Shown: positions 18,423 through 62,533, counted from the stretch's first letter. The stretch is DNA of 64,000 nt from an uncultured Gammaproteobacteria bacterium (GCA_964627245.1 CAZVGS010000001.1:89256-153255), one strand, 5' to 3'. Numbers and translations are program-made. The notes: generated by a model from the sequence alone, not told the origin.

Positions 18423-18560
18423 ATGACTATTCAGGAAAAAGAACAATTAAAAAATTTACCTCCCTTACCTGAAGAGGTTGAAGCTAAATTGCGTGCATTC
18501 GTTAATCTGATTATCGACCGCGTGCAGGAAGAACAGGCCAAGGGGGTAGTAAAAAAATGA
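18423..18560 (+). CDS. possible 45-aa protein translationally coupled to the recombinase (RDF/accessory candidate)
   Basis: Hand-translated MTIQEKEQLKNLPPLPEEVEAKLRAFVNLIIDRVQEEQAKGVVKK. Its TGA overlaps the recombinase ATG (ATGA). Confidence 0.3.
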   Translation: MTIQEKEQLKNLPPLPEEVEAKLRAFVNLIIDRVQEEQAKGVVKK

Positions 18561-20233
18561 AGTATCAGGCAGTTGCTTTACTCCGTGTATCATCGACAAA
18601 ACAGGGCCTTCAGGGCGATTCTCCAGACGACCAAAAAGTTCAGATTATAATCAAGGCTTCCACCTTCAACATCTTACCCGAACAGATTAAATTCTTTAAG
18701 CTCATACAGTCAGCATCGGGCGAAATTCAGCCCGCACAGGACGTTATAGACTTCTGTAAAACAAATCAGGTTGAATACTGCTTTATTAAATCCATTGACC
18801 GATTTACGCGCGGTGGTGCCGATTTTTATCCATATCTTAAGAATCAACTTATAAAAGTAGGTGTTCAGTTAGTAGATGTATTCGGTGTGATCAATCCGAC
18901 AGAAGTGAATACTCTTGAACATCTCGGAATGTCATTCAAGTGGAGCAAATACCACCCTTCCTATACCTCCGAATTACTGGAAGCCGAACGCGCAAAGTCT
19001 GAGGTCCGGGATATTCTTTCCAGACTTATCGGGGCGGAAATCCGTTATATCCGTATGGGTTATTGGGTAGGTCCACCGCCACAGGGATTAGTTACCGATA
19101 AGATAGAGACTGACTTTGACGGAAAAAGAACAATTCTTTCCCCTGACCCGAAGCGAAGCATCTTCTTTAAGCGGATGTTTGAACTTCGCGCTCAGGGTAA
19201 TCTTACCGACCATGAAATAGTTACCGCAATCAATGAAATGGGATATAAATCCCCTGAAAGACGAAGAAGAAAGAGCAAGCACGACCCGACCGTTATCGGA
19301 ATAATCGGTGGTACGCCGTTAACCTGCAAGCAGATGAGAAACTTTATCGAAAACCCCATATACGCGGGAATAATCGTTCACGGATTCTCACAATTCAAGC
19401 CCGTAAAAGCGAAGTTCGAAGGACTTGTGAGTGTTGGTACATGGAACAAGGCCAATAGAGGCAGAGCTACAATCGTAACAGACGGAGATACGATCAGAAT
19501 TCTCAGACAGGAACCTGAATCGTGGCAATTAACCAAGCAGAAGCAGAATCCTGAATTTCCGTACAGGGAGTTCGTATTATGTTCTGAGTGTAAACACCCG
19601 CTGAAAGGTTCATTCTCTACCGGGAAACTCGGCAAAAAGTATCCGGGATATCATTGTTCGCTCAGACATAAGCTTTATAGAATCCCGAGGAAGGACTTTG
19701 ATAAAACCATAGAGAAATTTGTATCAGAGGTAAAGTTCTCCGACCGATTCAAACTATATCTCAAAAAGTACGCGCTTGAGGAAATGGAGAAACGAAGAAT
19801 GCTTGCGGTTGATGATTCGCTGCATTTCCAACAACTCACGGCAAACCTGACGGCCGAGAAAAAACTAATCCTTGAGAAAGTGAAAATCCTCTCAAATCCT
19901 CTCATGCTCAAAGAACTTGAAAAACAGCTTGAAGATGTGGAGGCAAAGCTTATTCAGGCCAAGCAGAAGCGCAATAATAAGGAAGAAGCTGAGGTTCAAA
20001 TTGACACTTTAATTGCACATGCGAATTATTACATGGAACACCTCAAGGAATTACTCTTTTCAGGCACGAATCCGATACGGGACGCGGAGTTTTTCAGCCT
20101 GTTATTTGAAGAATTACCTACCTATAAAGAACTGGAGGATGGAACACCTAAATTAGATTGTCTGTTCAGGCTAAATGAAGCATTCAATACGCCTCAAAGT
20201 GATGTTGTGAGCGGCCAGGGACTCGAACCCTGA
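18557..20233 (+). CDS. large serine recombinase (integrase)
   Basis: 558 aa. N-terminal resolvase domain (ALLRVSSTKQ with catalytic Ser, IDRFTRGG), a recombinase domain (GYWVGPPPQG), a zinc ribbon (CSECKHPL…YHCS) and a C-terminal coiled coil. The last 26 nt overlap tRNA-Lys on the opposite strand. Confidence 0.9.
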   Translation: MKYQAVALLRVSSTKQGLQGDSPDDQKVQIIIKASTFNILPEQIKFFKLIQSASGEIQPAQDVIDFCKTNQVEYCFIKSIDRFTRGGADFYPYLKNQLIKVGVQLVDVFGVINPTEVNTLEHLGMSFKWSKYHPSYTSELLEAERAKSEVRDILSRLIGAEIRYIRMGYWVGPPPQGLVTDKIETDFDGKRTILSPDPKRSIFFKRMFELRAQGNLTDHEIVTAINEMGYKSPERRRRKSKHDPTVIGIIGGTPLTCKQMRNFIENPIYAGIIVHGFSQFKPVKAKFEGLVSVGTWNKANRGRATIVTDGDTIRILRQEPESWQLTKQKQNPEFPYREFVLCSECKHPLKGSFSTGKLGKKYPGYHCSLRHKLYRIPRKDFDKTIEKFVSEVKFSDRFKLYLKKYALEEMEKRRMLAVDDSLHFQQLTANLTAEKKLILEKVKILSNPLMLKELEKQLEDVEAKLIQAKQKRNNKEEAEVQIDTLIAHANYYMEHLKELLFSGTNPIRDAEFFSLLFEELPTYKELEDGTPKLDCLFRLNEAFNTPQSDVVSGQGLEP

Positions 20234-20279
20234 ACCGATTCCTTAAGAGGGAATTGCTCTACCATTGAGCTAGCCGCCC
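20208..20279 (-). tRNA. tRNA-Lys (anticodon CUU)
   Basis: Manual fold: GGGCGGC/TA/GCTC-AATGGTA-GAGC/A/ATTCC-CTCTTAA-GGAAT/CGGTT/CAGGG-TTCGAGT-CCCTG/GCCGCTC/A. All stems pair, with one G-U. CCA is not encoded. Confidence 0.9.
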
Positions 20280-20319
20280 GCGTAAAACTCACTGCGTTCG
20301 TCACGCGGTGAACCCTACT

Positions 20320-20607
20320 CTACATCTCACCGACCTTGTCACTGTGTGAATGATGTATTATATAATTTTTAAGTTGCTTTTTTAAGTAATTTCTTCCTGA
20401 ACCACTTTTTAAGAATTTTTCCTTTGAAGTGGCATCGGATCTGTTCAAATAGGCCTCACAGTATATAAGCTTCCAAGGCTTATAAGATTTAGTTGATTGA
20501 ACTAAACCCTTGTTATGTTTGCCCAAACGAACTATCACATTTGATGGTGTGAATCCGATATACCACTTTTTCGTGCTTATACTTTCTAGAACGTAAACTT
20601 TATACAT
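20320..20607 (-). CDS. small GIY-YIG nuclease-domain protein (UPF0213/URI-like)
   Basis: The start was moved to MYKVYVLES… because the track ORF start overlaps tRNA-Arg. Motifs are KVYVL…KWYIGFT…R…H…WKLIYCE…A…E…K. Confidence 0.7.
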   Translation of the reverse strand: MYKVYVLESISTKKWYIGFTPSNVIVRLGKHNKGLVQSTKSYKPWKLIYCEAYLNRSDATSKEKFLKSGSGRNYLKKQLKNYIIHHSHSDKVGEM

Positions 20608-20628
20608 TCCGCTCTTGCTTGCAACGTG

Positions 20629-20646
20629 ATCCCGCAATTGCGGGAT
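20629..20646. repeat. 18-bp perfect palindrome ATCCCGCAATTGCGGGAT between tRNA-Arg and the GIY-YIG gene
   Basis: Read directly. It lies 9 nt downstream of the tRNA-Arg 3' end on the minus strand and 21 nt upstream of the GIY-YIG start. The T-run is only on the plus strand. Confidence 0.5.
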
Positions 20647-20655
20647 TTTACGCTG

Positions 20656-20728
20656 CGCGCCCGAAGGGAGTCGAACCCCCAACCGTCTCGTCCGAAGCGA
20701 GATGCTCTATCCATTAAGCTACGGGCGC
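20656..20728 (-). tRNA. tRNA-Arg (anticodon UCG)
   Basis: Manual fold: GCGCCCG/TA/GCTT-AATGGATA-GAGC/A/TCTCG-CTTCGGA-CGAGA/CGGTT/GGGGG-TTCGACT-CCCTT/CGGGCGC/G. CCA is not encoded. Confidence 0.88.
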
Positions 20729-53900: not shown

Positions 53901-54338
53901 TTATTTAATTTTAGCTTGAGAGTCCAATATGCTGGTAAATATTCTTATCATCTCTTTGATGTCATTTTCAGGAATGGCTTTAAAGACATTAAAATGAGTT
54001 TTTTGTAGTTGATCTTTAAACACTTTTGTCTGTTTTACCCCATCTTGAGTAATAGAAAGACAAATAATTCTGCGGTCGGATGAGCTATTTTCTCTTTTAA
54101 TGAAATTTCCCTCAGCAAGACGATTGGTAAGTTGAGTTGTTGCGGATATTGACATCGATAACTCATCTGCAAGAGACCCGACAGAAGCATTAGGATTCTC
54201 GTAGATGAATGAAAGTGCCTGGGCTTGAAGAAGCGTTACTGCCTTGTCTTCAAAAGAACTTGTTTGCTCGATGAGCTTTCGGACCTTGATTGCTTTGCTA
54301 AAAAATTCAGACAATAATTTTGGGTTAATATTTTTCAT
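53901..54338 (-). CDS. MarR family transcriptional regulator
   Basis: 145 aa. wHTH segment VGSLADELSMSISATTQLTNRLAEGNFIKRENSSSDRR. Confidence 0.75.
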   Translation of the reverse strand: MKNINPKLLSEFFSKAIKVRKLIEQTSSFEDKAVTLLQAQALSFIYENPNASVGSLADELSMSISATTQLTNRLAEGNFIKRENSSSDRRIICLSITQDGVKQTKVFKDQLQKTHFNVFKAIPENDIKEMIRIFTSILDSQAKIK

Positions 54339-54350
54339 TCTTTTAAGAAG

Positions 54351-54387
54351 ATAGTTTATGACATAAATATTTTATAGTATAAACTAT
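54351..54387. promoter_or_regulatory. inverted repeat ATAGTTTAT-N19-ATAAACTAT (candidate MarR operator)
   Basis: Perfect 9-bp arms, starting 12 nt upstream of the marR start on the minus strand. Confidence 0.4.
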
Positions 54388-54563
54388 ATTCTGTCAAGGA
54401 ACGATTTCATAATACAGATTTTAAATTCAAACCTTTTTACCTAAATACTTATTTGTAAGCAGTGCTTTCGAATATAGAAATTCAGGTATATCCTAAATGT
54501 AATCTTATTGGAGAAAGACTGTCAACCTAAGTAATCAAAAAAAGTTAAGATATTCCGCCAATG

Positions 54564-54572
54564 TGGTATAAT
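54564..54572 (+). promoter_or_regulatory. extended -10 TGgTATAAT for the kinase-to-radical-SAM operon
   Basis: Sequence ccaatgTGGTATAATttgtcc, 45 nt upstream of ATG 54618. Confidence 0.45.
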
Positions 54573-54617
54573 TTGTCCACAAAAATACCAAAGAAGTACT
54601 CAGACCAGTAATATTCT

Positions 54618-55601
54618 ATGGAAAGACACATTAGTGAATTGGACTCTCAATATACTCCCGAAGTTCTAAAAACTGTAAGGCAGGACCCATTTCTTGCGAA
54701 TTTGAAGGAAATTAATGAAATCACTCCTGTTTCAAATGGTGTTTCTCATTACGTATATAAAATTACTACAGACAAAGATAATTTTTTTTTGAAGATACGA
54801 GAGAATCACTTTTCAAGGCTTCCTGAAATTGCAATAAGACCAGAGGACATTAAGAGTGAATATAAAGCACTAACCATTTACGAATCTTTCATGCCAAATA
54901 ATTTCCCCCAAATAGTCTCTTTTAGTGACCAAAAACACTACCTAATAACTACAGACGCAACATTCAATGGTATGTTGTTCCAGGAAACTTTAATAAGTGG
55001 AGACGCTACAGGAGAAATGGTTTATAATCTTGGATCAACATTGAAGGAGATTCATACTTCAACTGCAGCATACACGGATGATATCAGGGAAGAGGGGGAT
55101 AGCACCCATTATGATCTGAAGCTATTGCATAGATTTGAATTCGCTAAAAACGATGGACTCGATGAGGTAGTTGAGAAATTAAAAAAACAAAAAAAACAAT
55201 TAATTTTGGGGGACCCAGCCCCTAAAAACATTGGCATCAATAATAATGGACTACTCTTTATCTTCTTTGATCTCGAAGATGCTCATCAAGGTAATCCCAT
55301 CTTTGACTGTGGCTATTTGCTTGGTCATATATTATTACATAATCTTTTGGATCCAAAAAAAGCGAGCGAATTAGCGGATGACTATACAAGCGGTTATGGA
55401 ATAGAAAAGTTTGATGAAGATATGCTTAAAAAAATTGCATTGGGAATAGTAAGATACCGATTAGGAGGTAAAATTCCATATCCGGCACCAAATATTCCGC
55501 AAGACATGAAAATACCGATAATGAATAGAATCGAAAACATTTTTCAGGTAAATCTCAAAACTTCAGATTGGACTACAATATTTACTTATTTGAAAGCGTG
55601 A
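54618..55601 (+). CDS. APH/MtnK-like small-molecule kinase
   Basis: LGDPAPKNIGINNNG…FFDLEDAHQGNPIFDCGYLLGHILLH resembles the methylthioribose-kinase/aminoglycoside-kinase catalytic region. Confidence 0.55.
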   Translation: MERHISELDSQYTPEVLKTVRQDPFLANLKEINEITPVSNGVSHYVYKITTDKDNFFLKIRENHFSRLPEIAIRPEDIKSEYKALTIYESFMPNNFPQIVSFSDQKHYLITTDATFNGMLFQETLISGDATGEMVYNLGSTLKEIHTSTAAYTDDIREEGDSTHYDLKLLHRFEFAKNDGLDEVVEKLKKQKKQLILGDPAPKNIGINNNGLLFIFFDLEDAHQGNPIFDCGYLLGHILLHNLLDPKKASELADDYTSGYGIEKFDEDMLKKIALGIVRYRLGGKIPYPAPNIPQDMKIPIMNRIENIFQVNLKTSDWTTIFTYLKA

Positions 55602-57040
55602 AAAAATTAAATTTAATGCTTATTGGCGTGGGTCCGCATGCAAAGCGGATTTATTATCCAATTTGCAAACAGGAAAAGTCTTTAGGCGTTAAAATTGTAT
55701 GTGGGGTTGATTTAATAGAAAAAAGGAACGACATTGAGGAATACTTTGAAAAATATCAAGATAGAATGCCCATGCATTATGTGGCTAAGAATGCATATTC
55801 TAAAAAACTAACAAAACAAACAGCAGCAGCACTTAACAAGCTTGTACGAAAATATCAAGTCGATGGAGTAATCATTTCAACTGATCCTTTAGCTCACCTT
55901 CGCTATGGCTTGTGGGCCATTAGCCAAAATCTTCACGTATTGATGGATAAACCTATCTCTGCAGTCCCAGGATCATCAGTAAATGAGACAGCAGCAAGTG
56001 AAATTCTTTCTGATTTTTATTTACTGAAGAAAGCTCATATCAAAACAGGTAAAGATGCAATATTTAGTATCATGGCTCAAAGGCGGTTTCATCAAACATA
56101 TATAAAAGTACGCAAAATGGTAGAGGAAATTTTCAAAAAAACTAATTGTCCTATTACTTCTATTCAAACCGCTCACTCTGACGGTCAATGGAGACTTCCA
56201 TCGGAAATAATTGATATGGATTATCATTCTTTTGATCAGGGCTTAGGCAAGATTTCTCATTCTGGGTATCACTTCCTAGATATGATTTGCTGGCTTATAA
56301 GCGCTGCTACTACAGAGAAGAAGAAGGTAAATAATGTTGACATTTTTGCGCAAGCAATGCGTCCTACTGATTTTATCTCTCAAATAAATTTTTCTGATTA
56401 CAAAAATTTATTTGCAGATTTTTCCAAAATAAACAAATATTCCGAAAAAGAATTTAGAGAAATAACAAAAAAATACGGAGAAATTGACACATTTATCAAT
56501 TTCGCTTTCAAACATAATTCTGATGTAATTACTTTGAGTAGCTCAAATTTAATGCATAATGGTTTCTCTCAGCGAGGTTGGCTATTACCTAAGAAAGATT
56601 TGTACAAGGGAAATGGAAGAGTGAGACAGGAAGCAATGTTCATCGAACAAGGCCCCTTTCAGTCTATTTCGCTCGTCTCTTATCAGTCAAATGAAATAAA
56701 TAAAAATTCTAATAAAAAAGTTTATGATATAGGCGGTGAGTACCACTTGGACGTACATGTTTTTAGAAATAACAATTATAATCCAGAGTGGAAAGACTAT
56801 GAAAAGTTCTCGGTTGAGGATTTATCAGAAAATAGACTAAGAGGTTATTCTAGGGGTCATCAAGAAGATGCACGAAGAAACTCGATTATTGAATTTATAG
56901 AATGCGCGAAAGGTAATCACATAAAACAAAAATCTAGTCTGCTATCTCATGAATCTACTGTTAAACTTATGAGTGGAACATATCTTTCAATGGCGAAAAA
57001 ATTTAATTCTGAAAATCCTGTTGTAAATATCAGGCTCTAG
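55598..57040 (+). CDS. Gfo/Idh/MocA-like NAD(P)-dependent oxidoreductase (long form)
   Basis: GTG start overlapping the kinase stop (GTGA). Rossmann N-terminus LNLMLIGVGPHAKRIYYP and VDGVIISTDPLAHLRYGLWAISQNLHVLMDKP. Confidence 0.55.
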   Translation: MKKLNLMLIGVGPHAKRIYYPICKQEKSLGVKIVCGVDLIEKRNDIEEYFEKYQDRMPMHYVAKNAYSKKLTKQTAAALNKLVRKYQVDGVIISTDPLAHLRYGLWAISQNLHVLMDKPISAVPGSSVNETAASEILSDFYLLKKAHIKTGKDAIFSIMAQRRFHQTYIKVRKMVEEIFKKTNCPITSIQTAHSDGQWRLPSEIIDMDYHSFDQGLGKISHSGYHFLDMICWLISAATTEKKKVNNVDIFAQAMRPTDFISQINFSDYKNLFADFSKINKYSEKEFREITKKYGEIDTFINFAFKHNSDVITLSSSNLMHNGFSQRGWLLPKKDLYKGNGRVRQEAMFIEQGPFQSISLVSYQSNEINKNSNKKVYDIGGEYHLDVHVFRNNNYNPEWKDYEKFSVEDLSENRLRGYSRGHQEDARRNSIIEFIECAKGNHIKQKSSLLSHESTVKLMSGTYLSMAKKFNSENPVVNIRL

Positions 57041-57043
57041 TCC

Positions 57044-57739
57044 ATGAGATTTCAAATACTAGGAAGGAATACTATTGAGAAGGCTTCAGGTCTCGTTGTG
57101 GTAATAGACGTCCTCAGAGCGTTTACAACAGCATGCTACATATTTTCAAAAGGAGCAAAAGAAATCGTGCTTGCATCAACTCCCGAGGAGGGACTTCTTT
57201 TGAAAAAGCAGTATCCTAAATATCTTTTAGTAGGTGAGCGTAAGGGGCTAAAACTCACAGGATATGATTATGGAAACTCTCCATTTGAAATAAAACAAGC
57301 CAGTCTTTTAGATAAGACTGTCGTGATGACAACTTCCCTGGGGACCTCAACTCTTCTTGATTTGTACACATTATCAAAAGGCAAAGAATTTATTACTGGA
57401 AGTTTTGTTAATGCATCGGCCATTATTAACTACATAAAAAAAAGCAAATATGAAATAGTGAGCCTTATATGCACAGACGACTCCTTCAATGATAACGAGG
57501 ATTACATGTGTGCAAAATATATAGTAAGCAACTTTATAGGAAAATCTCTTGACTTTCAAAAAATAAAGGAAGATTTGACCAAACATCCAATATCTGAAGG
57601 GTTTCTTAAAAAACCTTTAACTAAATACGCACCAGATGATTTCAATCTGTGTTTGCAAGTGAATAAATTTAGGTTTATTATAATGTCAAATAGATCAGCT
57701 GAGAGAATACTTTTGAAGCCTATAAATTATGAGCGCTGA
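57044..57739 (+). CDS. 2-phosphosulfolactate phosphatase (ComB) family protein
   Basis: VVIDVLRAFTTACY and GERKGLKLTGYDYGNSPFE…VVMTTSLGT match ComB-family signatures. Confidence 0.65.
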   Translation: MRFQILGRNTIEKASGLVVVIDVLRAFTTACYIFSKGAKEIVLASTPEEGLLLKKQYPKYLLVGERKGLKLTGYDYGNSPFEIKQASLLDKTVVMTTSLGTSTLLDLYTLSKGKEFITGSFVNASAIINYIKKSKYEIVSLICTDDSFNDNEDYMCAKYIVSNFIGKSLDFQKIKEDLTKHPISEGFLKKPLTKYAPDDFNLCLQVNKFRFIIMSNRSAERILLKPINYER

Positions 57740-59201
57740 AAGAAGTCAAGGTGCACCCAATAGATTTACGCTCCGAAAAGAATACTTTGGCGGTCTGGTC
57801 CTTGATTCCCATTCACCCAAGAATGAATTTATCCAGCCAGATGAATATGAGTTTTTAAGCGAATTAAAAGAAACAGAAGCGGCTATATATGATCAAGTCG
57901 CCCAAAATAATCCCAATTTAGCCCAAAGAGTTGATGCTTTTGCCCAGACTGGATTTGTGGAAAAAGGTCCTAATGGTGAAATTCTTTTGACAAACATCAG
58001 ACTTGTGGATCCTCCTCAAACAATCCGCGAAGGCGTTCTTACCGCTCCCATACGTGTATACGATATGTATACCAGAAAATGCAATCTCACCTGCGAACAT
58101 TGCTACGCTGCAAGCAATCCATTTATTAAAGAGGATAGACGCACCTTAGATCAGACAGCAGATATCATGAGGAAGTTTTATGATGCCGGAGCTATAGAAT
58201 GGCGCTTCACGGGTGGGGAACCCACAGTTTACCCTGACTTATTTGACGCTATTGATGTTGCGCAAGGATTAGGTATGAATGTTAGCCTGAATTCAAATGG
58301 ATGGTGGAGCGAAAATACTGCAAAAAAAGTACTTAGTGCTGGAATATCAGAAATGGTAATTAGCATTGAAGGTGAACCAGGAACAAATGACTTAAGAAGA
58401 AAGGTGGGTTCTTATGATCATGTAGTCGACACTCTCGATAAAGTGGCGCATCACAATAAATTATATCCGGATAAATATATGAATGTAATTATAAATACCG
58501 CGGTAGGCAGGGATAATATAAATGACGTAGAATTTGTGGTAAGACTGGCTGCAAAATATGGACACGATATGAACTTTCTTCCATTAAAACCCAGCGGAAG
58601 AGCAAGACATGGACTGCAAACCACGATGCTAAGCCCAAGGGAATGGATGGAATTTTCAAGAAAAGTAAACGAACTTAGATCGGATCCCGAAATAAAAGAT
58701 TCAGGAATTAAACTCAGTCATAAATATAAAGATCTGTTCTGCCCTACTGCTCCTGATCAATCCAATAAACCTTATCCCTTTAACTATGCTGAGTGTGGAG
58801 CAACAACCACAGCTATAAGCATGTTTCCAGATGGAAGGGTTTTCGCATGCCCCTTCGTAATAGAATTTGATGTTAATAATAAATTCGTTGGCCCCAATAT
58901 GATTACGTCATCAGTGGAAGACGCATGGAACGACTTACATATTGACACATTCAGAACTGCCGAGAAAACGCAAGGCTGCTCTAATTGCGGACATCTATCA
59001 AAAGGGTGCAGGGGTGCATGCAAGGCAACAGTTCTTGGGTATGGAGGAGAAATATCGGACGGTAAATTAAAAGGAGAAGATCCGTATTGCTATGCAAATC
59101 TCATGAACGAGAATGGCAAAAACATAGTAATTCCTGAAGACAAAAAGCAAGGACGCCAAATGCTCCCACTTATTGCAATAGATGATATCCCCACACTATA
59201 A
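57729..59201 (+). CDS. radical SAM enzyme with C-terminal SPASM domain and ~100-aa N-terminal extension
   Basis: CNLTCEHC (CX3CX2C), GGEPT, and a C-terminal Cys cluster (CGATT…ACPF…GCSNCGHLSKGCRGAC…C). The N-terminus FTLRKEYFGGLVLDS… looks like a PqqD/RRE domain. It overlaps comB-like by 11 nt. Confidence 0.75.
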   Translation: MSAERSQGAPNRFTLRKEYFGGLVLDSHSPKNEFIQPDEYEFLSELKETEAAIYDQVAQNNPNLAQRVDAFAQTGFVEKGPNGEILLTNIRLVDPPQTIREGVLTAPIRVYDMYTRKCNLTCEHCYAASNPFIKEDRRTLDQTADIMRKFYDAGAIEWRFTGGEPTVYPDLFDAIDVAQGLGMNVSLNSNGWWSENTAKKVLSAGISEMVISIEGEPGTNDLRRKVGSYDHVVDTLDKVAHHNKLYPDKYMNVIINTAVGRDNINDVEFVVRLAAKYGHDMNFLPLKPSGRARHGLQTTMLSPREWMEFSRKVNELRSDPEIKDSGIKLSHKYKDLFCPTAPDQSNKPYPFNYAECGATTTAISMFPDGRVFACPFVIEFDVNNKFVGPNMITSSVEDAWNDLHIDTFRTAEKTQGCSNCGHLSKGCRGACKATVLGYGGEISDGKLKGEDPYCYANLMNENGKNIVIPEDKKQGRQMLPLIAIDDIPTL

Positions 59202-59483
59202 GTTCTATTAAAAATCTTGATACTTTCAGATTTTATATTTGGATTAATCCAGACAATTCCGCATAATAACTTCAATCTCGTAGAATAACTAGGTTAATAA
59301 CCTTGAATAGTCACCCATTCAACATGTTAATCAAATTAATATTATATGAAAAACTGATTGGGAACGAGAAAATATACTAAAATTAGGCTATCTAAGGTCA
59401 ATTACTTAAATTTTGTTATTAAATCCTGATTTGTTTGAGGCATTAATTTAGTTGGTCGCATAACTGTTGTGAGCTACCCGACC

Positions 59484-59633
59484 CTATTTTCGAACGGATT
59501 GTTTCTCACGCTTTAAAGGTTTGGGAAGTGTACCAGCAGCTTCTCTAGCTAGGAAATCATCAGCTAGTAATTCTGCAAGCTCATCTAATATTTCATCTTC
59601 AGTTTTCTTTTTCTTAACTACCTGACGGGACAT
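59484..59633 (-). CDS. possible 49-aa protein
   Basis: Hand-translated MSRQVVKKKKTEDEILDELAELLADDFLAREAAGTLPKPLKREKQSVRK. It overlaps the upstream stop by 16 nt. No other support. Confidence 0.2.
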   Translation of the reverse strand: MSRQVVKKKKTEDEILDELAELLADDFLAREAAGTLPKPLKREKQSVRK

Positions 59634-60103
59634 AATATAAAAGCATGATGATGAACAATAGTATTTTTATATTCTATTGATTCAAGAGAGGTAGTAACAC
59701 TTGTTTCAGGGTAACTACCGGTTAGTTTATATCTGTATTGCCAATCTCCCTCAGGTTCAGGTTCACAATCTTCCATTAATCTAGTCTTCTCTCCAAGTTC
59801 TAATATCATATGTTTTAAATATGAGCCCACTTCTTTATCAGATATACCTAATGACGATAAAACTTCATCATTTGGTGTTCCGCCAGCATACAAACGAGTA
59901 AAGGTTTCATCTCCTACACGGACCAGTTCCTGTCCCCCACCAGAGCTACTAGCAAACCACTCGTCATGATAAGTTGCACCCTCTGGAAGCTCAACATGAC
60001 TCACATTACCAGAAAAATCTCCACGATTTATACTTTCAGGTTTGCCTCCAGCATACCCAGCGTTTAGACCGTTTGTTAAAGCTGATTTAAATTCCTGTTT
60101 CAC
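59618..60103 (-). CDS. hypothetical protein (possibly DUF5680-like)
   Basis: 161 aa with a GTG start 7 nt downstream of a TATAAT box (60111-60116, minus strand). The GYAGG…YHDEW…GGGQELV…YAGG pattern is vaguely DUF5680-like. Confidence 0.45.
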   Translation of the reverse strand: MKQEFKSALTNGLNAGYAGGKPESINRGDFSGNVSHVELPEGATYHDEWFASSSGGGQELVRVGDETFTRLYAGGTPNDEVLSSLGISDKEVGSYLKHMILELGEKTRLMEDCEPEPEGDWQYRYKLTGSYPETSVTTSLESIEYKNTIVHHHAFILCPVR

Positions 60104-60129
60104 TAAGTTGATTATACACCACAGCCATA

Positions 60130-60141
60130 AGGGACTCGAAC
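60130..60141. repeat. orphan copy of the tRNA-Lys T-arm segment (AGGGACTCGAAC)
   Basis: 12-mer identical to 60231-60242 (inside tRNA-Lys UUU) and to 20217-20228 (inside tRNA-Lys CUU). Confidence 0.5.
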
Positions 60142-60221
60142 GAAAAGTGAAGCTATAAATTAAAAGTTAAAAGTGGAAATAGTGTTTTCGAACCAAGTTT
60201 TGAGGTCAAAAAGAAATGTTG

Positions 60222-60293
60222 TGATCCGGCAGGGACTCGAACCCTGAACCCAAAGCTTAAAAGGCTTTTGCTCTACCATTGAGCTACCGGACC
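60222..60293 (-). tRNA. tRNA-Lys (anticodon UUU)
   Basis: Manual fold: GGTCCGG/TA/GCTC-AATGGTA-GAGC/A/AAAGC-CTTTTAA-GCTTT/GGGTT/CAGGG-TTCGAGT-CCCTG/CCGGATC/A. CCA is not encoded. Confidence 0.9.
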
Positions 60294-60441
60294 ATTCGGC
60301 TCAACCTTGGCCTTGTTCCACATAACCTCAATTGAACCGACCCTAATTTTACCAAATTTAGCCTTGTCTACGCAAATACCCCGTTAATTTGACAAAAAGT
60401 AAAAAGTTGCCCATACTATGCGTGAAAGGAGGTGAAAGATA

Positions 60442-61098
60442 ATGAATAGTGTTAATGACATTTTAATTAACACCCTCAACGGCTCGGTCACAACAATAAT
60501 ATCTTTTATTCCGCTCTTTCTATCAGGCTTCATAATTCTTCTAATTGGAGTAATAGCTTCAACTTTTTTAAGACAAATTGTAAGAGAAAGCTTGAAATTT
60601 ATTAAGTTCGAGAGTTTTCTAAGAAAATACGGAGTACCGCAAACAAAAGAAGCAGCCGACTGGAGCACAATCCTATCAGAAATCGCCAGATGGTTTATTA
60701 TAATTGTCTTTCTGATACCAGCAGCTCAAATCTGGGGACTTGGAAAATTTGGAGATGTTTTGAATAACTTACTTCTCTTCTTACCAAATGTTTTTATATC
60801 TGTATTACTGCTTTTGGTAGGATTTGTTGTATCAAAGCTTGTTTATGACCTTTTGATTGCATCTGTACAAGGGCTTTCTAGAGACGGTGCCAAGAGCATT
60901 GCTTTAACCGGGAAATGGGCTGTCTTGGCATTTGTTTTTTTGATAGTATTAAATCAGCTTGGTATTGCAAGCGATCTAATACAAATTCTCTTCTCTGGAA
61001 TTGTAGCAATGATCGCTATTGCAGGAGGTCTGGCTTTTGGGCTTGGAGGTAAAGATACCGCCAAAGATATTATCGAAAAATTTAAAAAAAGACTTTGA
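60442..61098 (+). CDS. membrane protein with repeated 'conserved TM helix' segments (MscS-N-like)
   Basis: 218 aa with 4-5 TM helices. Good SD (aaggaggtgaaagataATG) and TTGACA/TACTAT promoter-like boxes upstream. Confidence 0.45.
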   Translation: MNSVNDILINTLNGSVTTIISFIPLFLSGFIILLIGVIASTFLRQIVRESLKFIKFESFLRKYGVPQTKEAADWSTILSEIARWFIIIVFLIPAAQIWGLGKFGDVLNNLLLFLPNVFISVLLLLVGFVVSKLVYDLLIASVQGLSRDGAKSIALTGKWAVLAFVFLIVLNQLGIASDLIQILFSGIVAMIAIAGGLAFGLGGKDTAKDIIEKFKKRL

Positions 61099-61143
61099 TT
61101 TGAGTTGAAACAAAATTTTTCGTATAATACGATTGCAACAAAA

Positions 61144-61217
61144 GGCCCCATCGTCTAGTGGCCTAGGACGTCGGGCTTTCATCCCGAAAATCGCGGGTTC
61201 GACTCCCGCTGGGGTCA
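61144..61217 (+). tRNA. tRNA-Glu (anticodon UUC)
   Basis: Manual fold: GGCCCCA/TC/GTCT-AGTGGCCTA-GGAC/G/TCGGG-CTTTCAT-CCCGA/AAATC/GCGGG-TTCGACT-CCCGC/TGGGGTC/A. CCA is not encoded. Confidence 0.88.
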
Positions 61218-61259
61218 CAATTAACTTGCTCACTTTGGTTGAGATTTATTTTGTCATTA

Positions 61260-62533
61260 TGGGTGTAGTACTTATTTTAGGAACTCAGTGGGGAGATGAG
61301 GGAAAGGGAAAAGTTATCGATGCGCTGAGCAAAAACTCGGAATTCGTTGTCCGCTTCCAGGGCGGTAACAACGCAGGACATACGGTCATAAATCCTCTTG
61401 GAGAATTCAAACTTCACCTAATTCCTGCTGGTGTATTTGAAAAAAAATCAAAAGTAGCAATAGCAAATGGTGTTGTAATTGATCCTGAAGTACTTGTTGA
61501 AGAAATTGAAAGTCTTGAAAAAGCAGGAATTGATCTCAAAAATAGGCTATACATATCTCCAAGATGCCATATTATTTTGCCTTATCATAAGCTTTTGGAA
61601 AAGGTGTATGAGGAGGCAAAAGGAAAAGGCAAAACAGGAACCACGGGGCGTGGAATAGGTCCTGTCTATTCGGATAAAGTCGGCTACAACGGCATCAGAC
61701 TTTATGACTTAATGGATCCTAAAAAATTTAAGAACAAGCTTGAAATTCAGCTTGGGTTAAAAAATGCAATTCTTAAATCATACGGAATAAAACCTTTGTC
61801 ATTTAGCACCATAGAAAAAACAATGAAACCTATACGAAAAAAGTTGCTGCCGTATATTAATGAACCCTTTCCCTTCATCCAAGAAGCATTAAAGAAAAAT
61901 AAAAAAATTATGATCGAGGGCGCGCAAGCTGTTTTTCTTGACAACGACTGGGGAACCTACCCATTCGTGACTGCTTCAACCATCGTTTCTGGCGGCATAA
62001 CGGGAGGTGCGGGAATTGCACCTAAATACCTGAAAGAAATTATTGGAGTAATCAAAGCATATACCACAAGAGTTGGTGAAGGACCTTTTCCGACTGAATT
62101 TGATGCTAGCGAAAGTGAGCATATCAGAAACCTTGGCCTGGAATTTGGAGCAACGACAGGAAGGGCAAGAAGGTGCGGATGGCTTGATTTGGAGATGGTA
62201 AGATTTGCAGTCGAGTTGAATGGAATTACTGACCTTGCACTAACCAAAATTGATGTCCTAGATACATACAAAGAAATAAAGCTCTGCACCGGCTACAAAT
62301 TGGAAGGCAAAATCCTGAGGTATTATGACGGTGATGAAATCTTTCTTGATAACGTAGAACCTGTATACAAGACGATGAAAGGCTGGCAATCAAGCACAAA
62401 AGGCGTAACCTTATTTGATAAGCTTCCTAGAGAAGCAAAAGCTTACATCGCGGAGATTGAAAAGCAGACAGGAGTAAAAGTCGCATACATCTCAACAGGT
62501 CCTTCAAGGGAAGAGATGATAGCAAGAAGCTAG
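61260..62533 (+). CDS. purA: adenylosuccinate synthetase
   Basis: MGVVLILGTQWGDEGKGKVID, GGNNAGHT, TTGRGIGP and GATTGRARRCGWLD motifs. The start is moved downstream of tRNA-Glu, which the track ORF overlaps. Confidence 0.92.

What the first reader, a model, noticed from the sequence alone, without database searches (positions are those of the whole stretch)
54339..59201. Four-gene operon: APH/MtnK-like kinase, long Gfo/Idh/MocA-like oxidoreductase, ComB-family phosphatase and radical SAM/SPASM enzyme, with no visible precursor peptide
The genes are translationally coupled (GTGA overlap at 55598, a 3-nt gap, then an 11-nt overlap). They sit behind a TGgTATAAT promoter, divergent from MarR and its exporter. 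The radical SAM enzyme has CX3CX2C, a full SPASM Cys cluster and a ~100-aa N-terminal extension (FTLRKEYFGGLVLD…) that looks like a PqqD/RRE peptide-recognition domain. Yet I find no plausible precursor ORF in the flanking 280-nt regions (only 19 aa or less, without an RBS). The partner enzymes instead suggest chemistry on a phosphorylated sugar, cyclitol or hydroxy-acid. That would mean kinase and ComB-type phosphatase bracketing a redox step, with a BtrN/anSME-like radical dehydrogenation. I do not know of a described pathway with this combination. It lies next to tRNA-Lys(UUU) and att-like remnants, so it may be a horizontally acquired metabolic island.
Basis: partly seen in the sequence, partly recalled or inferred. 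Interest (0 to 1): 0.7.

Follow-up and report, generated by a model that had tools for sequence, protein, structure and literature searches.

The report
Uncharacterised kinase–dehydrogenase–phosphatase–radical SAM cassette
This is a real, tightly packed four-gene operon, conserved in many tiny "candidate phyla radiation" bacteria, that most likely remodels a phosphorylated sugar or nucleotide by radical chemistry; its product is unknown and no paper I could search describes it.

Summary
Four translationally coupled genes encode an APH-family kinase, a 480-aa Gfo/Idh/MocA-fold dehydrogenase, a ComB-family phosphatase and a radical SAM/SPASM enzyme with a roughly 95-aa N-terminal domain.

The cassette recurs in at least 15 non-redundant Patescibacteria loci. 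Its invariant core is the dehydrogenase plus the radical SAM enzyme (27 of 34 loci; most exceptions are truncated contigs).

No conserved small ORF lies near the cassette in 49 loci. The N-domain has the three-strand, three-helix order of a peptide-recognition (RRE) domain, and the whole model resembles SuiB, CteB, SkfB and anSME. Alone, however, the N-domain matches no PqqD/RRE sequence.

Context points to sugar or nucleotide chemistry:
- The dehydrogenase family (about 1,750 homologues in CPR, DPANN archaea, Clostridia and actinomycetes) elsewhere pairs with thymidylate-kinase-like kinases, NUDIX, HD and histidine phosphatases, or viperin-like and MoaA-like radical SAM enzymes.
- An NrdJ-like ribonucleotide reductase sits divergently beside 13 cassettes.
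- Distant radical SAM relatives sharing the N-terminal R-x-EYFGG-x3-D motif sit with NUDIX (once fused), HD, NTP-transferase and GDPGP1-like genes.

Best reading (about 0.5): a small-molecule pathway on a phosphorylated or nucleotide-linked sugar, not a conventional RiPP cluster. The horizontally acquired island idea is unsupported. No curated family or searchable paper covers it.

The parts
54545..54572 (+). Promoter-like site (TTAAGA, 16 nt, TG-extended TATAAT), 45 nt upstream of the first gene
   Evidence: This is a consensus match only. The number of such sites in the region is not above the shuffled expectation.
54618..55601 (+). APH-family (aminoglycoside/sugar-kinase-type) phosphotransferase, 327 aa
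   Evidence: PF01636 scores 44.6 bits against a cut-off of 23.2. There is no NCBIfam hit. A 13-member alignment keeps invariant D199, K203, N204, D218 and E220, which I read as the catalytic and Mg-binding motifs. A family profile finds no solved relative at E<0.01. Homologues sit next to the dehydrogenase in CPR and in actinomycetes.
55598..57040 (+). Long (480 aa) Gfo/Idh/MocA-fold NAD(P)-dependent dehydrogenase; one half of the conserved core
   Evidence: The AlphaFold model has pLDDT 90.7. Foldseek top hits are glucuronide-3-dehydrogenase 8tdi, levoglucosan dehydrogenase, scyllo-inositol dehydrogenase and WlbA. G10-x-G12-x2-A15, D117-K118-P119, H225 and D228 are invariant. There are 1,759 homologues at E<=1e-5.
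57044..57739 (+). ComB-family (2-phosphosulfolactate-phosphatase fold) phosphatase, 231 aa
   Evidence: PF04029 scores 146.7 bits. All NCBIfam ComB equivalogs are below cut-off, the best at 115 against 235. PDB relatives are 2yyv and 1vr0 at E 4e-33 and 2e-30. It is present in 19 of 34 related loci.
57729..59201 (+). Radical SAM/SPASM enzyme, 490 aa; the other half of the conserved core
   Evidence: PF04055 and PF13186 are above cut-off. All 61 NCBIfam matches are below cut-off; the best is MftC at 100.5 against 265. About 108 family members (>=39% identity) are nearly all Patescibacteria. The model has pLDDT 89.1. The nearest structures are SuiB, SkfB, CteB and anSME.
57729..58022 (+). N-terminal domain (aa 1-98) with RRE-like strand-strand-strand-helix-helix-helix order and an invariant R16-x-E18-Y-F-G-G-x3-D26 motif
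   Evidence: Predicted strands are 13-18, 21-26 and 32-35; helices are 37-49, 54-60 and 62-74, at pLDDT above 90. Full-length profile alignments to SuiB and CteB start at query residues 9 and 19. The domain alone has no PDB or Pfam sequence match at E<=10. The motif is shared with relatives of 21-30% identity.
58080..58103 (+). CX3CX2C radical SAM cluster motif (C118, C122, C125)
   Evidence: Invariant in 55 of 55 sequences.
58794..59090 (+). SPASM auxiliary-cluster region: C356-x12-G-x4-C374 ... C417-x2-C420-x6-C427-x3-C431 ... C454
   Evidence: All seven cysteines are invariant. An eighth candidate, C338, is cysteine in only 69% of members.
53901..54338 (-). Divergent MarR-family regulator (context only; not conserved next to the cassette elsewhere)
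   Evidence: PF01047 scores 45 bits. It is absent from the closest relative's flanks.

Best explanation
The operon is a small-molecule tailoring cassette that acts on a phosphorylated or nucleotide-linked sugar, possibly the ribose of a nucleotide.

Proposed order, all inferred:
1. The APH-type kinase phosphorylates a sugar or nucleoside hydroxyl.
2. The Gfo/Idh/MocA-fold enzyme interconverts a secondary alcohol and a ketone on the ring with NAD(P).
3. The radical SAM/SPASM enzyme abstracts a ring hydrogen with the 5'-deoxyadenosyl radical. It then either dehydrogenates the substrate or eliminates a neighbouring hydroxyl or phosphate. With the dehydrogenase this gives a net deoxygenation, epimerisation or rearrangement.
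4. The ComB-type phosphatase removes the activating phosphate.

The dehydrogenase and the radical SAM enzyme form the obligatory pair. The kinase and phosphatase are exchangeable accessories. The RRE-like N-domain is proposed to have been inherited from peptide maturases and reused, for substrate or partner binding, rather than to bind a leader peptide.

Shown here: gene order and coupling, family and fold assignments, conservation and co-occurrence. Inferred: substrate class, reaction order and chemistry.
For: 1. The cassette is conserved. All four genes occur in 14 non-redundant loci plus the window. The dehydrogenase is within 7 kb of the radical SAM gene in 27 of 34 loci, and four of the seven exceptions are truncated or short contigs.

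2. The dehydrogenase has a confident Gfo/Idh/MocA sugar-dehydrogenase fold, with an invariant Rossmann motif, D-K-P, and His/Asp.

3. In loci without this radical SAM enzyme, the same dehydrogenase family sits with different kinases (thymidylate-kinase-like, 26 loci; APH in actinomycetes). It also sits with different phosphohydrolases (NUDIX, HD, histidine phosphatase), dCMP deaminase, methyl-, carbamoyl- and glycosyl-transferases. In Clostridia it sits with a viperin-like radical SAM enzyme, and in L019 with a MoaA-like one. Non-homologous replacement of the kinase and the phosphatase around one dehydrogenase is what a metabolic pathway would show.

4. An NrdJ-like ribonucleotide reductase is divergently adjacent in 13 non-redundant cassettes. 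A bona fide UMP kinase follows the pair in L005.

5. Radical SAM relatives at 21-30% identity share the N-terminal EYFGG motif. They lie in multi-radical-SAM operons with NUDIX (once fused to a radical SAM/SPASM protein), HD, NTP_transferase, DUF4922/GDPGP1-like, NDK-like and GT2 genes.

6. No conserved small ORF lies within 2 kb of the cassette in 49 loci.

7. Precedent for 'Gfo-type dehydrogenase plus Nudix plus phosphatase' on a nucleotide exists in Pur10/Pur7/Pur3 and AdgB-E (PMC11641026, PMC9239236).
Against: - The N-domain has the topology of a peptide-recognition element. Among the solved relatives found here, those with such an N-terminal domain (SuiB, CteB) act on peptides.
- A precursor encoded elsewhere in the genome, or shorter than 12 aa, would have been missed.
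- No substrate is identified. 'Sugar' and 'nucleotide' cannot be separated, and the neighbour evidence is guilt by association.
- ComB's characterised substrates are 2-phospho-hydroxy-acids, not sugars (my knowledge).
Confidence: 0.5

Rival explanations
1. The radical SAM enzyme is a genuine RRE-dependent peptide maturase (RiPP-type, or a peptide-derived cofactor as in PQQ or mycofactocin). Its precursor would be encoded elsewhere or be too small or divergent to detect. The kinase, dehydrogenase and phosphatase would tailor the peptide or use the product.
For: - The N-domain has the RRE-like strand and helix order at high confidence.
- The best structural matches are SuiB (384 aligned residues, so reaching beyond the core into the N-terminal region), CteB, SkfB, ChlB and PqqE.
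- The best NCBIfam hit is the mycofactocin maturase, though far below cut-off.
- APH-type kinases do phosphorylate RiPP precursors in some pathways (my knowledge).
Against: - No conserved small ORF was found in 49 loci.
- No protease, transporter or other RiPP accessory gene recurs.
- The obligatory partner is a sugar-type dehydrogenase whose family mostly lives without any such radical SAM enzyme, among nucleotide or sugar enzymes.
- The N-domain carries a strictly invariant R-x-EYFGG-x3-D motif, shared with paralogues of 21-30% identity in NUDIX/HD/nucleotidyl-transferase operons. I read that as unlike leader-specific RREs.
- The N-domain has no sequence match to PqqD or RRE structures.
Confidence: 0.2
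2. The radical SAM enzyme is a protein maturase, as anSME is for sulfatases. It would install a modification on its constant partner, the Gfo-like dehydrogenase, or on another cassette protein.
For: - The radical SAM gene is almost never found without the dehydrogenase gene.
- An RRE-like domain could dock onto a partner's tail.
Against: - Dehydrogenases linked to the radical SAM enzyme (28) show no group-specific conserved residue against those not linked (45). Only M159 and N473 differ in frequency, and no Cys, Ser, Lys, Tyr or Trp signature appears.
- On a neighbour-joining tree they are interleaved with unlinked ones.
- About 1,750 dehydrogenase homologues exist against about 108 radical SAM family members, so most function without it.
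Confidence: 0.08
3. The cassette functionally serves the adjacent NrdJ-like ribonucleotide reductase or deoxynucleotide supply. It might provide radical SAM-based deoxygenation of a phosphorylated nucleoside, or supply or replace the radical cofactor for a B12-type reductase in organisms that cannot make B12.
For: - An NrdJ-like reductase (310-320 bits against a cut-off of 400, so divergent) is divergently adjacent to the kinase gene in 13 non-redundant cassettes whose proteins are only about 50% identical to one another.
- Other contexts include thymidylate-kinase-like kinases, dCMP deaminase and UMP kinase.
Against: - The window itself, its closest relative and all two-gene (dehydrogenase plus radical SAM) loci lack the adjacent reductase. 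No reductase is in the 64-kb window.
- The link could be inherited synteny within one CPR lineage.
Confidence: 0.06

Closest known systems
RRE-radical SAM-SPASM peptide maturases (SuiB, CteB; also SkfB, ChlB, PqqE)
   Different: There is no precursor peptide gene, protease or exporter in 49 loci. The N-domain has no sequence similarity to known RREs and carries its own invariant motif. The constant partner is a sugar-type dehydrogenase.
Sugar- or nucleoside-acting radical SAM enzymes with auxiliary clusters (BlsE, DesII, BtrN, AprD4 with its partner reductase AprD3, AbmM)
   Different: Structural similarity is lower than to the peptide modifiers (DesII 18.5, AbmM 16.1, BtrN 13.7, AprD4 10.5). 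To my knowledge none of these has an RRE-like N-domain, and none is known with a ComB-type phosphatase.
Aminonucleoside and kanosamine logic: Pur10 (NAD-dependent ATP dehydrogenase), Pur7 (Nudix) and Pur3 (phosphatase); AdgB-E; RifL/K/M/N
   Same: A Gfo-type dehydrogenase acts on a nucleotide or nucleotide-sugar, flanked by a phosphohydrolase and (in Rif, my knowledge) a kinase (PMC11641026, PMC9239236). Relatives of the window's dehydrogenase sit with NUDIX and nucleotide-kinase-like genes.
   Different: No aminotransferase (Pur4/RifK equivalent) is in the cassette; a radical SAM enzyme takes that place. The dehydrogenase is about 480 aa with large insertions. Direct similarity to Pur10 could not be tested because no sequence was available.
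ComB, 2-phosphosulfolactate phosphatase of coenzyme M biosynthesis
   Same: It belongs to the same Pfam family (146.7 bits) and has solved relatives at E 4e-33 (2yyv) and 2e-30 (1vr0).
   Different: It is below every NCBIfam ComB equivalog cut-off. No ComA, ComC or ComDE genes are nearby. The host is a CPR bacterium, not a methanogen.
Prokaryotic viperins with associated kinases
   Same: A radical SAM enzyme is encoded beside a kinase in a nucleotide context. The Clostridial relatives of the dehydrogenase sit beside a viperin-like enzyme (103 bits on NCBIfam, 112 bits on PADLOC).
   Different: The window's enzyme matches only the generic radical SAM core of viperin models (about 55-69 bits over residues 115-266). 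Unlike viperin (my knowledge), it also has a SPASM domain and an N-terminal domain.

Membership tests
Radical SAM superfamily | CX3CX2C motif binding the SAM-cleaving [4Fe-4S] cluster; PF04055 above cut-off | tested here: met
   C118, C122 and C125 are invariant in 55 of 55 sequences. PF04055 scores 61.8 bits against 29.5.
SPASM subfamily | C-terminal seven-cysteine motif CX9-15GX4C ... CX2CX5-6CX3C ... C for two auxiliary clusters | tested here: met
   C356-x12-G369-x4-C374, C417-x2-C420-x6-C427-x3-C431 and C454 are all invariant. PF13186 scores 25.3 bits against 21.5.
RRE-dependent RiPP maturase (SuiB/CteB type) | N-terminal PqqD-like RiPP recognition element | tested here: inconclusive
   The predicted topology (three strands, then three helices) has pLDDT above 90, and full-length alignments to SuiB and CteB reach the N-terminus. 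The domain alone gives no PDB or Pfam match at E<=10.
RRE-dependent RiPP maturase (SuiB/CteB type) | Co-located precursor peptide gene | tested here: not met
   No conserved ORF of 12-110 aa lies within 2 kb of the cassette in 49 loci. The ORFs in the window's flanks have no counterpart elsewhere. Precursors encoded at a distance were not tested.
Mycofactocin maturase MftC | TIGR03962 score above cut-off; MftA and MftB neighbours | tested here: not met
   The score is 100.5 bits against a cut-off of 265. No MftA- or MftB-like genes are in any locus.
BtrN/anSME-type radical dehydrogenases | Close structural and sequence relationship to BtrN or anSME, and their substrates' genes nearby | tested here: inconclusive
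Gfo/Idh/MocA oxidoreductases | N-terminal Rossmann GxGxxA, (E/D)KP motif, C-terminal alpha/beta domain with catalytic His/Asp | tested here: met
   The fold match has E 1e-17 to 1e-14. G10, G12, A15, D117-K118-P119, H225 and D228 are invariant. The Pfam sequence score is below cut-off (19.4 against 24).
ComB of the coenzyme M pathway | Equivalog-level score and ComA/ComC/ComDE context | tested here: not met
   It is a family member (PF04029, 146.7 bits), but the best equivalog scores 115 against 235. No CoM genes are nearby.
APH/MtnK-type kinases | PF01636 above cut-off with a catalytic Asp/Asn loop and an Mg-binding Asp | tested here: met
   The score is 44.6 bits against 23.2. D199, N204 and D218 are invariant. 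Membership of the MtnK subfamily specifically is not shown: there is no NCBIfam hit and no PDB hit.
Puromycin-type aminonucleoside pathway | Pur10-like dehydrogenase plus Pur4 aminotransferase plus Pur7 Nudix plus Pur3 phosphatase | tested here: not met
   No aminotransferase or Nudix gene is in the window's operon. Nudix occurs only in related loci without this radical SAM enzyme.
Anti-phage defence systems (PADLOC) | Match to a defence-system protein model | tested here: not met
   There are only partial pVip matches to the generic radical SAM core (68.7 bits, residues 115-266). The other three proteins have no match.

The most novel reading that the evidence does not exclude
A whole family of RRE-topology radical SAM enzymes, marked by the invariant R-x-EYFGG-x3-D motif, works without any peptide. 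In this reading the window's cassette performs a viperin- or RNR-like radical deoxygenation or rearrangement of a phosphorylated nucleoside in CPR bacteria. It would be tied functionally to the divergently encoded NrdJ-like ribonucleotide reductase, giving a previously unknown route in nucleotide metabolism for organisms with minimal genomes.
Probability: 0.08. Interest if true: 0.85.

Novelty: new variant of a known kind. Interest (0 to 1): 0.45.

Why it matters
CPR bacteria and DPANN archaea have very small genomes, so a four-gene cassette kept in many lineages is likely to matter to them. Both its core enzymes lack any curated functional family.

If the radical SAM enzyme acts on a sugar phosphate or nucleotide, it would show a peptide-recognition fold reused outside peptide chemistry. 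It would also add a reaction type to radical sugar or nucleotide modification, possibly producing a deoxy- or rearranged sugar or nucleoside used on the cell surface, in salvage, or as an antimetabolite.

If instead a hidden peptide exists, the cassette would be an unusual RiPP or cofactor system with kinase, dehydrogenase and phosphatase tailoring.

Either way, the finding defines a testable enzyme set of four soluble proteins.

Tried and rejected
- **Small ORFs.** I searched for conserved small ORFs, first in 14 loci (blastp-short) and then in 49 loci (phmmer, 12-110 aa, within 2 kb). Nothing was shared beyond near-duplicate contigs. One stretch conserved in several frames looks non-coding.
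- **Window flank ORFs.** I ran tblastn of the ORFs of 22, 28, 49 and 161 aa against all loci and found no counterpart.
- **Riboswitch or leader RNA.** An Rfam E-value scan of 54000-61300 found only the two tRNAs.
- **N-domain alone.** A search against PDB sequences and Pfam at E<=10 found nothing.
- **Kinase profile.** A search against PDB found nothing.
- **Defence-system models (PADLOC).** There were only generic radical SAM matches.
- **Group-specific residues.** I looked for residues in the dehydrogenase that might mark a modification site and found none.
- **Island signatures.** There are no bracketing direct repeats. The only pair is 27 nt at 78% identity, with both copies inside coding sequence. 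GC is 0.33-0.41 against a window mean of 0.39.
- **Literature.** Five completed full-text searches found no paper on this cassette. Three further attempts failed on term syntax.
- **AlphaFold database fold search.** This was unavailable, so a direct comparison with Pur10, RifL or fungal Cns1 was not possible.
- **UMP kinase link.** I considered this and then downgraded it. It is bona fide in L005 only, and the AA_kinase in L007 is a different protein.

Full report
**1. What is in the window**

Four ORFs lie head to tail on the + strand at 54618-55601, 55598-57040, 57044-57739 and 57729-59201. I read the junctions directly from the sequence:
- GTG 55598-55600 overlaps the TGA at 55599-55601.
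- The second gene ends at TAG 57038-57040 and the third starts at ATG 57044.
- The fourth starts at ATG 57729, 11 nt before the end of the third gene's stop at 57739.

The GTG start of the second gene, rather than the upstream TTG at 55568, matches the N-termini of 41 homologues. A TTAAGA-16-TG-n-TATAAT site lies at 54545-54572. Promoter-like sites are no commoner here than in shuffled sequence, so it is only plausible. Upstream and divergent lie a MarR gene, then an FtsX-type permease and an ABC ATPase. tRNA-Lys(ttt) is about 1 kb downstream.

**2. What the four proteins are**

- *Gene 1* is an APH-family phosphotransferase: PF01636 at 44.6 bits, no NCBIfam match, and no solved relative by profile search. 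Its catalytic-loop Asp/Asn and metal-binding Asp are invariant among 13 orthologues.
- *Gene 2* scores below Pfam's Gfo/Idh/MocA threshold. Its AlphaFold model (pLDDT 90.7), however, matches glucuronide-3-dehydrogenase, levoglucosan dehydrogenase, scyllo-inositol dehydrogenase and WlbA at E 1e-17 to 1e-14. The Rossmann GxGxxA, D-K-P and His/Asp positions are invariant.
- *Gene 3* is a ComB-family phosphatase (PF04029 at 146.7 bits; PDB 2yyv and 1vr0 at E 4e-33 and 2e-30). It is below every ComB equivalog cut-off.
- *Gene 4* is a radical SAM/SPASM enzyme. CX3CX2C and seven C-terminal cysteines are invariant in 55 sequences. All 61 NCBIfam matches are below threshold; the best is the mycofactocin maturase at 100.5 against 265.

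**3. The N-terminal domain**

The model of the radical SAM enzyme (pLDDT 89.1) places three strands (13-18, 21-26, 32-35) and then three helices (37-49, 54-60, 62-74) in front of the barrel. That is the order seen in RiPP recognition elements.

The domain alone, however, finds nothing in PDB sequences or Pfam even at E<=10. It carries an invariant R16-x-E18-Y-F-G-G-x3-D26 motif. RRE-like fold is therefore supported; RRE function is open.

**4. Is there a precursor peptide?**

No conserved one was found. In the window's flanks the ORFs of at least 20 aa are 22, 28 and 36 aa upstream and 23-61 aa downstream. None has a counterpart in any related locus.

Across 49 loci that carry the radical SAM gene, a phmmer all-against-all of intergenic ORFs (12-110 aa, within 2 kb) found nothing shared beyond near-identical contigs. 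The one exception is conserved in several frames on both strands, so it looks like non-coding DNA or RNA.

**5. How the cassette is distributed**

The radical SAM family has about 108 cluster representatives at 39% identity or more, and almost all named ones are Patescibacteria. Among 34 non-redundant loci:
- the dehydrogenase is within 7 kb in 27;
- of the other seven, four are truncated or short contigs and three (L116, L117, L009) sit in other radical SAM contexts;
- ComB is present in 19 and the kinase in 14;
- all four genes are present in 14, plus the window;
- ten loci have only dehydrogenase plus radical SAM.

The core is therefore the dehydrogenase-radical SAM pair.

**6. The dehydrogenase family is much larger and tells more**

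It has 1,759 homologues at E<=1e-5. They occur in CPR bacteria, DPANN archaea, Clostridia, actinomycetes, Planctomycetota and Nitrospirota. The neighbours fall into recurring types:
- NUDIX plus a thymidylate-kinase-like P-loop kinase (26 loci). Some also carry an HD phosphohydrolase, a carbamoyltransferase or a dCMP deaminase.
- GT8, GT2, NUDIX, a methyltransferase and a kinase.
- In Clostridia, a viperin-like radical SAM enzyme, a methyltransferase and a histidine phosphatase.
- In one CPR locus, a MoaA-like radical SAM enzyme.
- In actinomycetes, an APH homologue of the window's kinase together with a phosphodiester glycosidase, a WbqC-like protein and PKS genes. The RefSeq annotation of an Embleya plasmid shows most of these and adds a PIG-L deacetylase.

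One dehydrogenase is thus surrounded by non-homologous kinases and phosphohydrolases. That is the signature of a small-molecule pathway on a phosphorylated substrate.

On a neighbour-joining tree, the dehydrogenases linked to the radical SAM enzyme fall into two or three clades interleaved with unlinked ones. They carry no group-specific conserved residue that could mark a modification site. This argues against the radical SAM enzyme being a maturase of the dehydrogenase.

**7. Nucleotide and sugar signals around the radical SAM enzyme itself**

An NrdJ-like ribonucleotide reductase (310-320 bits against a cut-off of 400) is divergently adjacent to the kinase gene in 13 non-redundant cassettes. 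It is absent from the window and from its closest relative.

Relatives at 21-30% identity keep the EYFGG motif. They lie in operons of three to six radical SAM genes that also carry:
- a B12-binding radical SAM enzyme;
- NUDIX, once as a NUDIX-radical SAM-SPASM fusion;
- HD, NTP_transferase, DUF4922/GDPGP1-like nucleotidyl-transferase, NDK-like and GT2 genes.

None of these contexts looks like a RiPP cluster.

**8. Mechanism proposed**

My best reading (about 0.5) runs as follows:
1. The kinase activates a sugar or nucleoside hydroxyl.
2. The dehydrogenase and the radical SAM enzyme act in sequence on the ring, by alcohol/ketone interconversion and radical hydrogen abstraction. The radical step either dehydrogenates or eliminates a neighbouring hydroxyl or phosphate.
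3. ComB removes the phosphate.

The nearest mechanistic analogues are the AprD4/AprD3 pair, DesII, BtrN and BlsE (function from my knowledge; structural distances). The gene logic resembles the Pur10/Pur7/Pur3 and AdgB-E pathways, where a Gfo-type dehydrogenase oxidises a nucleotide flanked by phosphohydrolases (PMC11641026, PMC9239236).

Every chemical step here is inferred. Only anatomy, families, folds and co-occurrence are shown.

**9. What speaks against it**

By structure the enzyme is at least as close to the peptide or protein modifiers (SkfB 27.5, anSME 27.1, SuiB 27.0, CteB 26.3, ChlB 26.2) as to BlsE (22.5). It is far from BtrN (13.7) and AprD4 (10.5). An unlinked or very short precursor cannot be excluded. 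I therefore keep the RiPP or cofactor reading at about 0.2, a protein-maturase reading at about 0.08 and a reductase-linked reading at about 0.06.

**10. The island idea**

There are no bracketing repeats. The one 27-nt pair, at 78% identity, lies inside coding sequence. GC across the operon is 0.33-0.41 against a window mean of 0.39. The only hint of mobility is that the closest relative (Levybacteria MAG L011, and L092; proteins 70-82% identical) has different flanking genes.

**11. Novelty and score**

No curated model (Pfam, NCBIfam release 20, PADLOC) reaches threshold for the two core enzymes beyond superfamily level. Five full-text searches found no description.

The parts belong to known kinds: radical SAM/SPASM, Gfo/Idh/MocA, APH and ComB. 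Pairings of a radical enzyme with a dehydrogenase on sugars are also known. I therefore rate it a new variant of a known kind, with interest 0.45. It is real, conserved and undescribed, with an unusual RRE-topology domain in a non-RiPP context, but no function is established.

Noticed in passing
L008 7468-7638; L108 9350-9625; L109 6780-7230; L111 9346-9750; L121 972-1426: In loci with only the dehydrogenase and radical SAM genes, a 200-450 nt stretch just downstream of the radical SAM gene is conserved in several reading frames on both strands. This suggests a conserved non-coding RNA or DNA element. Rfam assigns only a nearby tRNA in L111.
   Followed up: partly
L015 1522-3285(-), L094 3056-4771(-), L098 3047-4768(-) and 10 further loci: A short (about 570-595 aa) NrdJ-like ribonucleotide reductase is divergently adjacent to the kinase gene in 13 non-redundant cassettes. 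It scores below the NrdJ equivalog cut-off (310-320 against 400 bits). It is not present in this window.
   Followed up: partly
L136/L151 (operon about 5022-13297 in L136), L134, L137, L149, L150: CPR and DPANN-like contigs carry operons of three to six radical SAM genes. These include a B12-binding type, a NUDIX-radical SAM-SPASM fusion and up to three paralogues with the same N-terminal EYFGG motif. They also carry HD, NTP_transferase, DUF4922/GDPGP1-like, NDK-like and GT2 genes. This looks like an elaborate, undescribed nucleotide- or sugar-modifying pathway.
   Followed up: partly
L080, L081, L083, L084, L086, L087 (gut and other Clostridia MAGs): The Gfo-like dehydrogenase sits beside a 283-289 aa viperin-like radical SAM enzyme (below the prokaryotic-viperin cut-off, 103 against 180 bits), a methyltransferase and a histidine phosphatase.
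   Followed up: no
L039-L078 (Streptomyces, Lentzea, Actinosynnema, Embleya plasmid NZ_CP108778.1 about 98.8-106.9 kb = L091 13855-21915): Actinomycete homologues of the dehydrogenase (36-41% identity) are followed by a homologue of the window's APH kinase. Around them lie a phosphodiester glycosidase, a WbqC-like protein and a phosphopantetheinyl transferase, with split KS-AT and KR-DH polyketide synthase genes in the Streptomyces loci; the Embleya plasmid adds a PIG-L deacetylase. This appears to be an unassigned biosynthetic cluster.
   Followed up: no
window 59484-59633 (-) and 59618-60103 (-): A 161-aa ORF with no Pfam or NCBIfam match is followed, with a 16-nt overlap, by a 49-aa ORF with an acidic helix-like stretch (EDEILDELAELLADDFLAREA). 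Both converge on the radical SAM gene. Neither is found in any related locus.
   Followed up: yes
window 18557-20728: A 558-aa recombinase-domain protein (PF07508) ends inside or next to tRNA-Lys(ctt) at 20207-20279(-), with tRNA-Arg(tcg) at 20655-20728(-). Upstream (about 4-18 kb) are many short ORFs and a 1,094-aa ORF. This may be an integrated element unrelated to the finding.
   Followed up: no
window 57729-59201, residues 461-490: The window's radical SAM protein has a roughly 30-aa C-terminal tail (pLDDT below 50). Similar tails occur only in P0003 and P0059, and in the closest relatives of similar length; the rest of the family ends at about residue 460.
   Followed up: no
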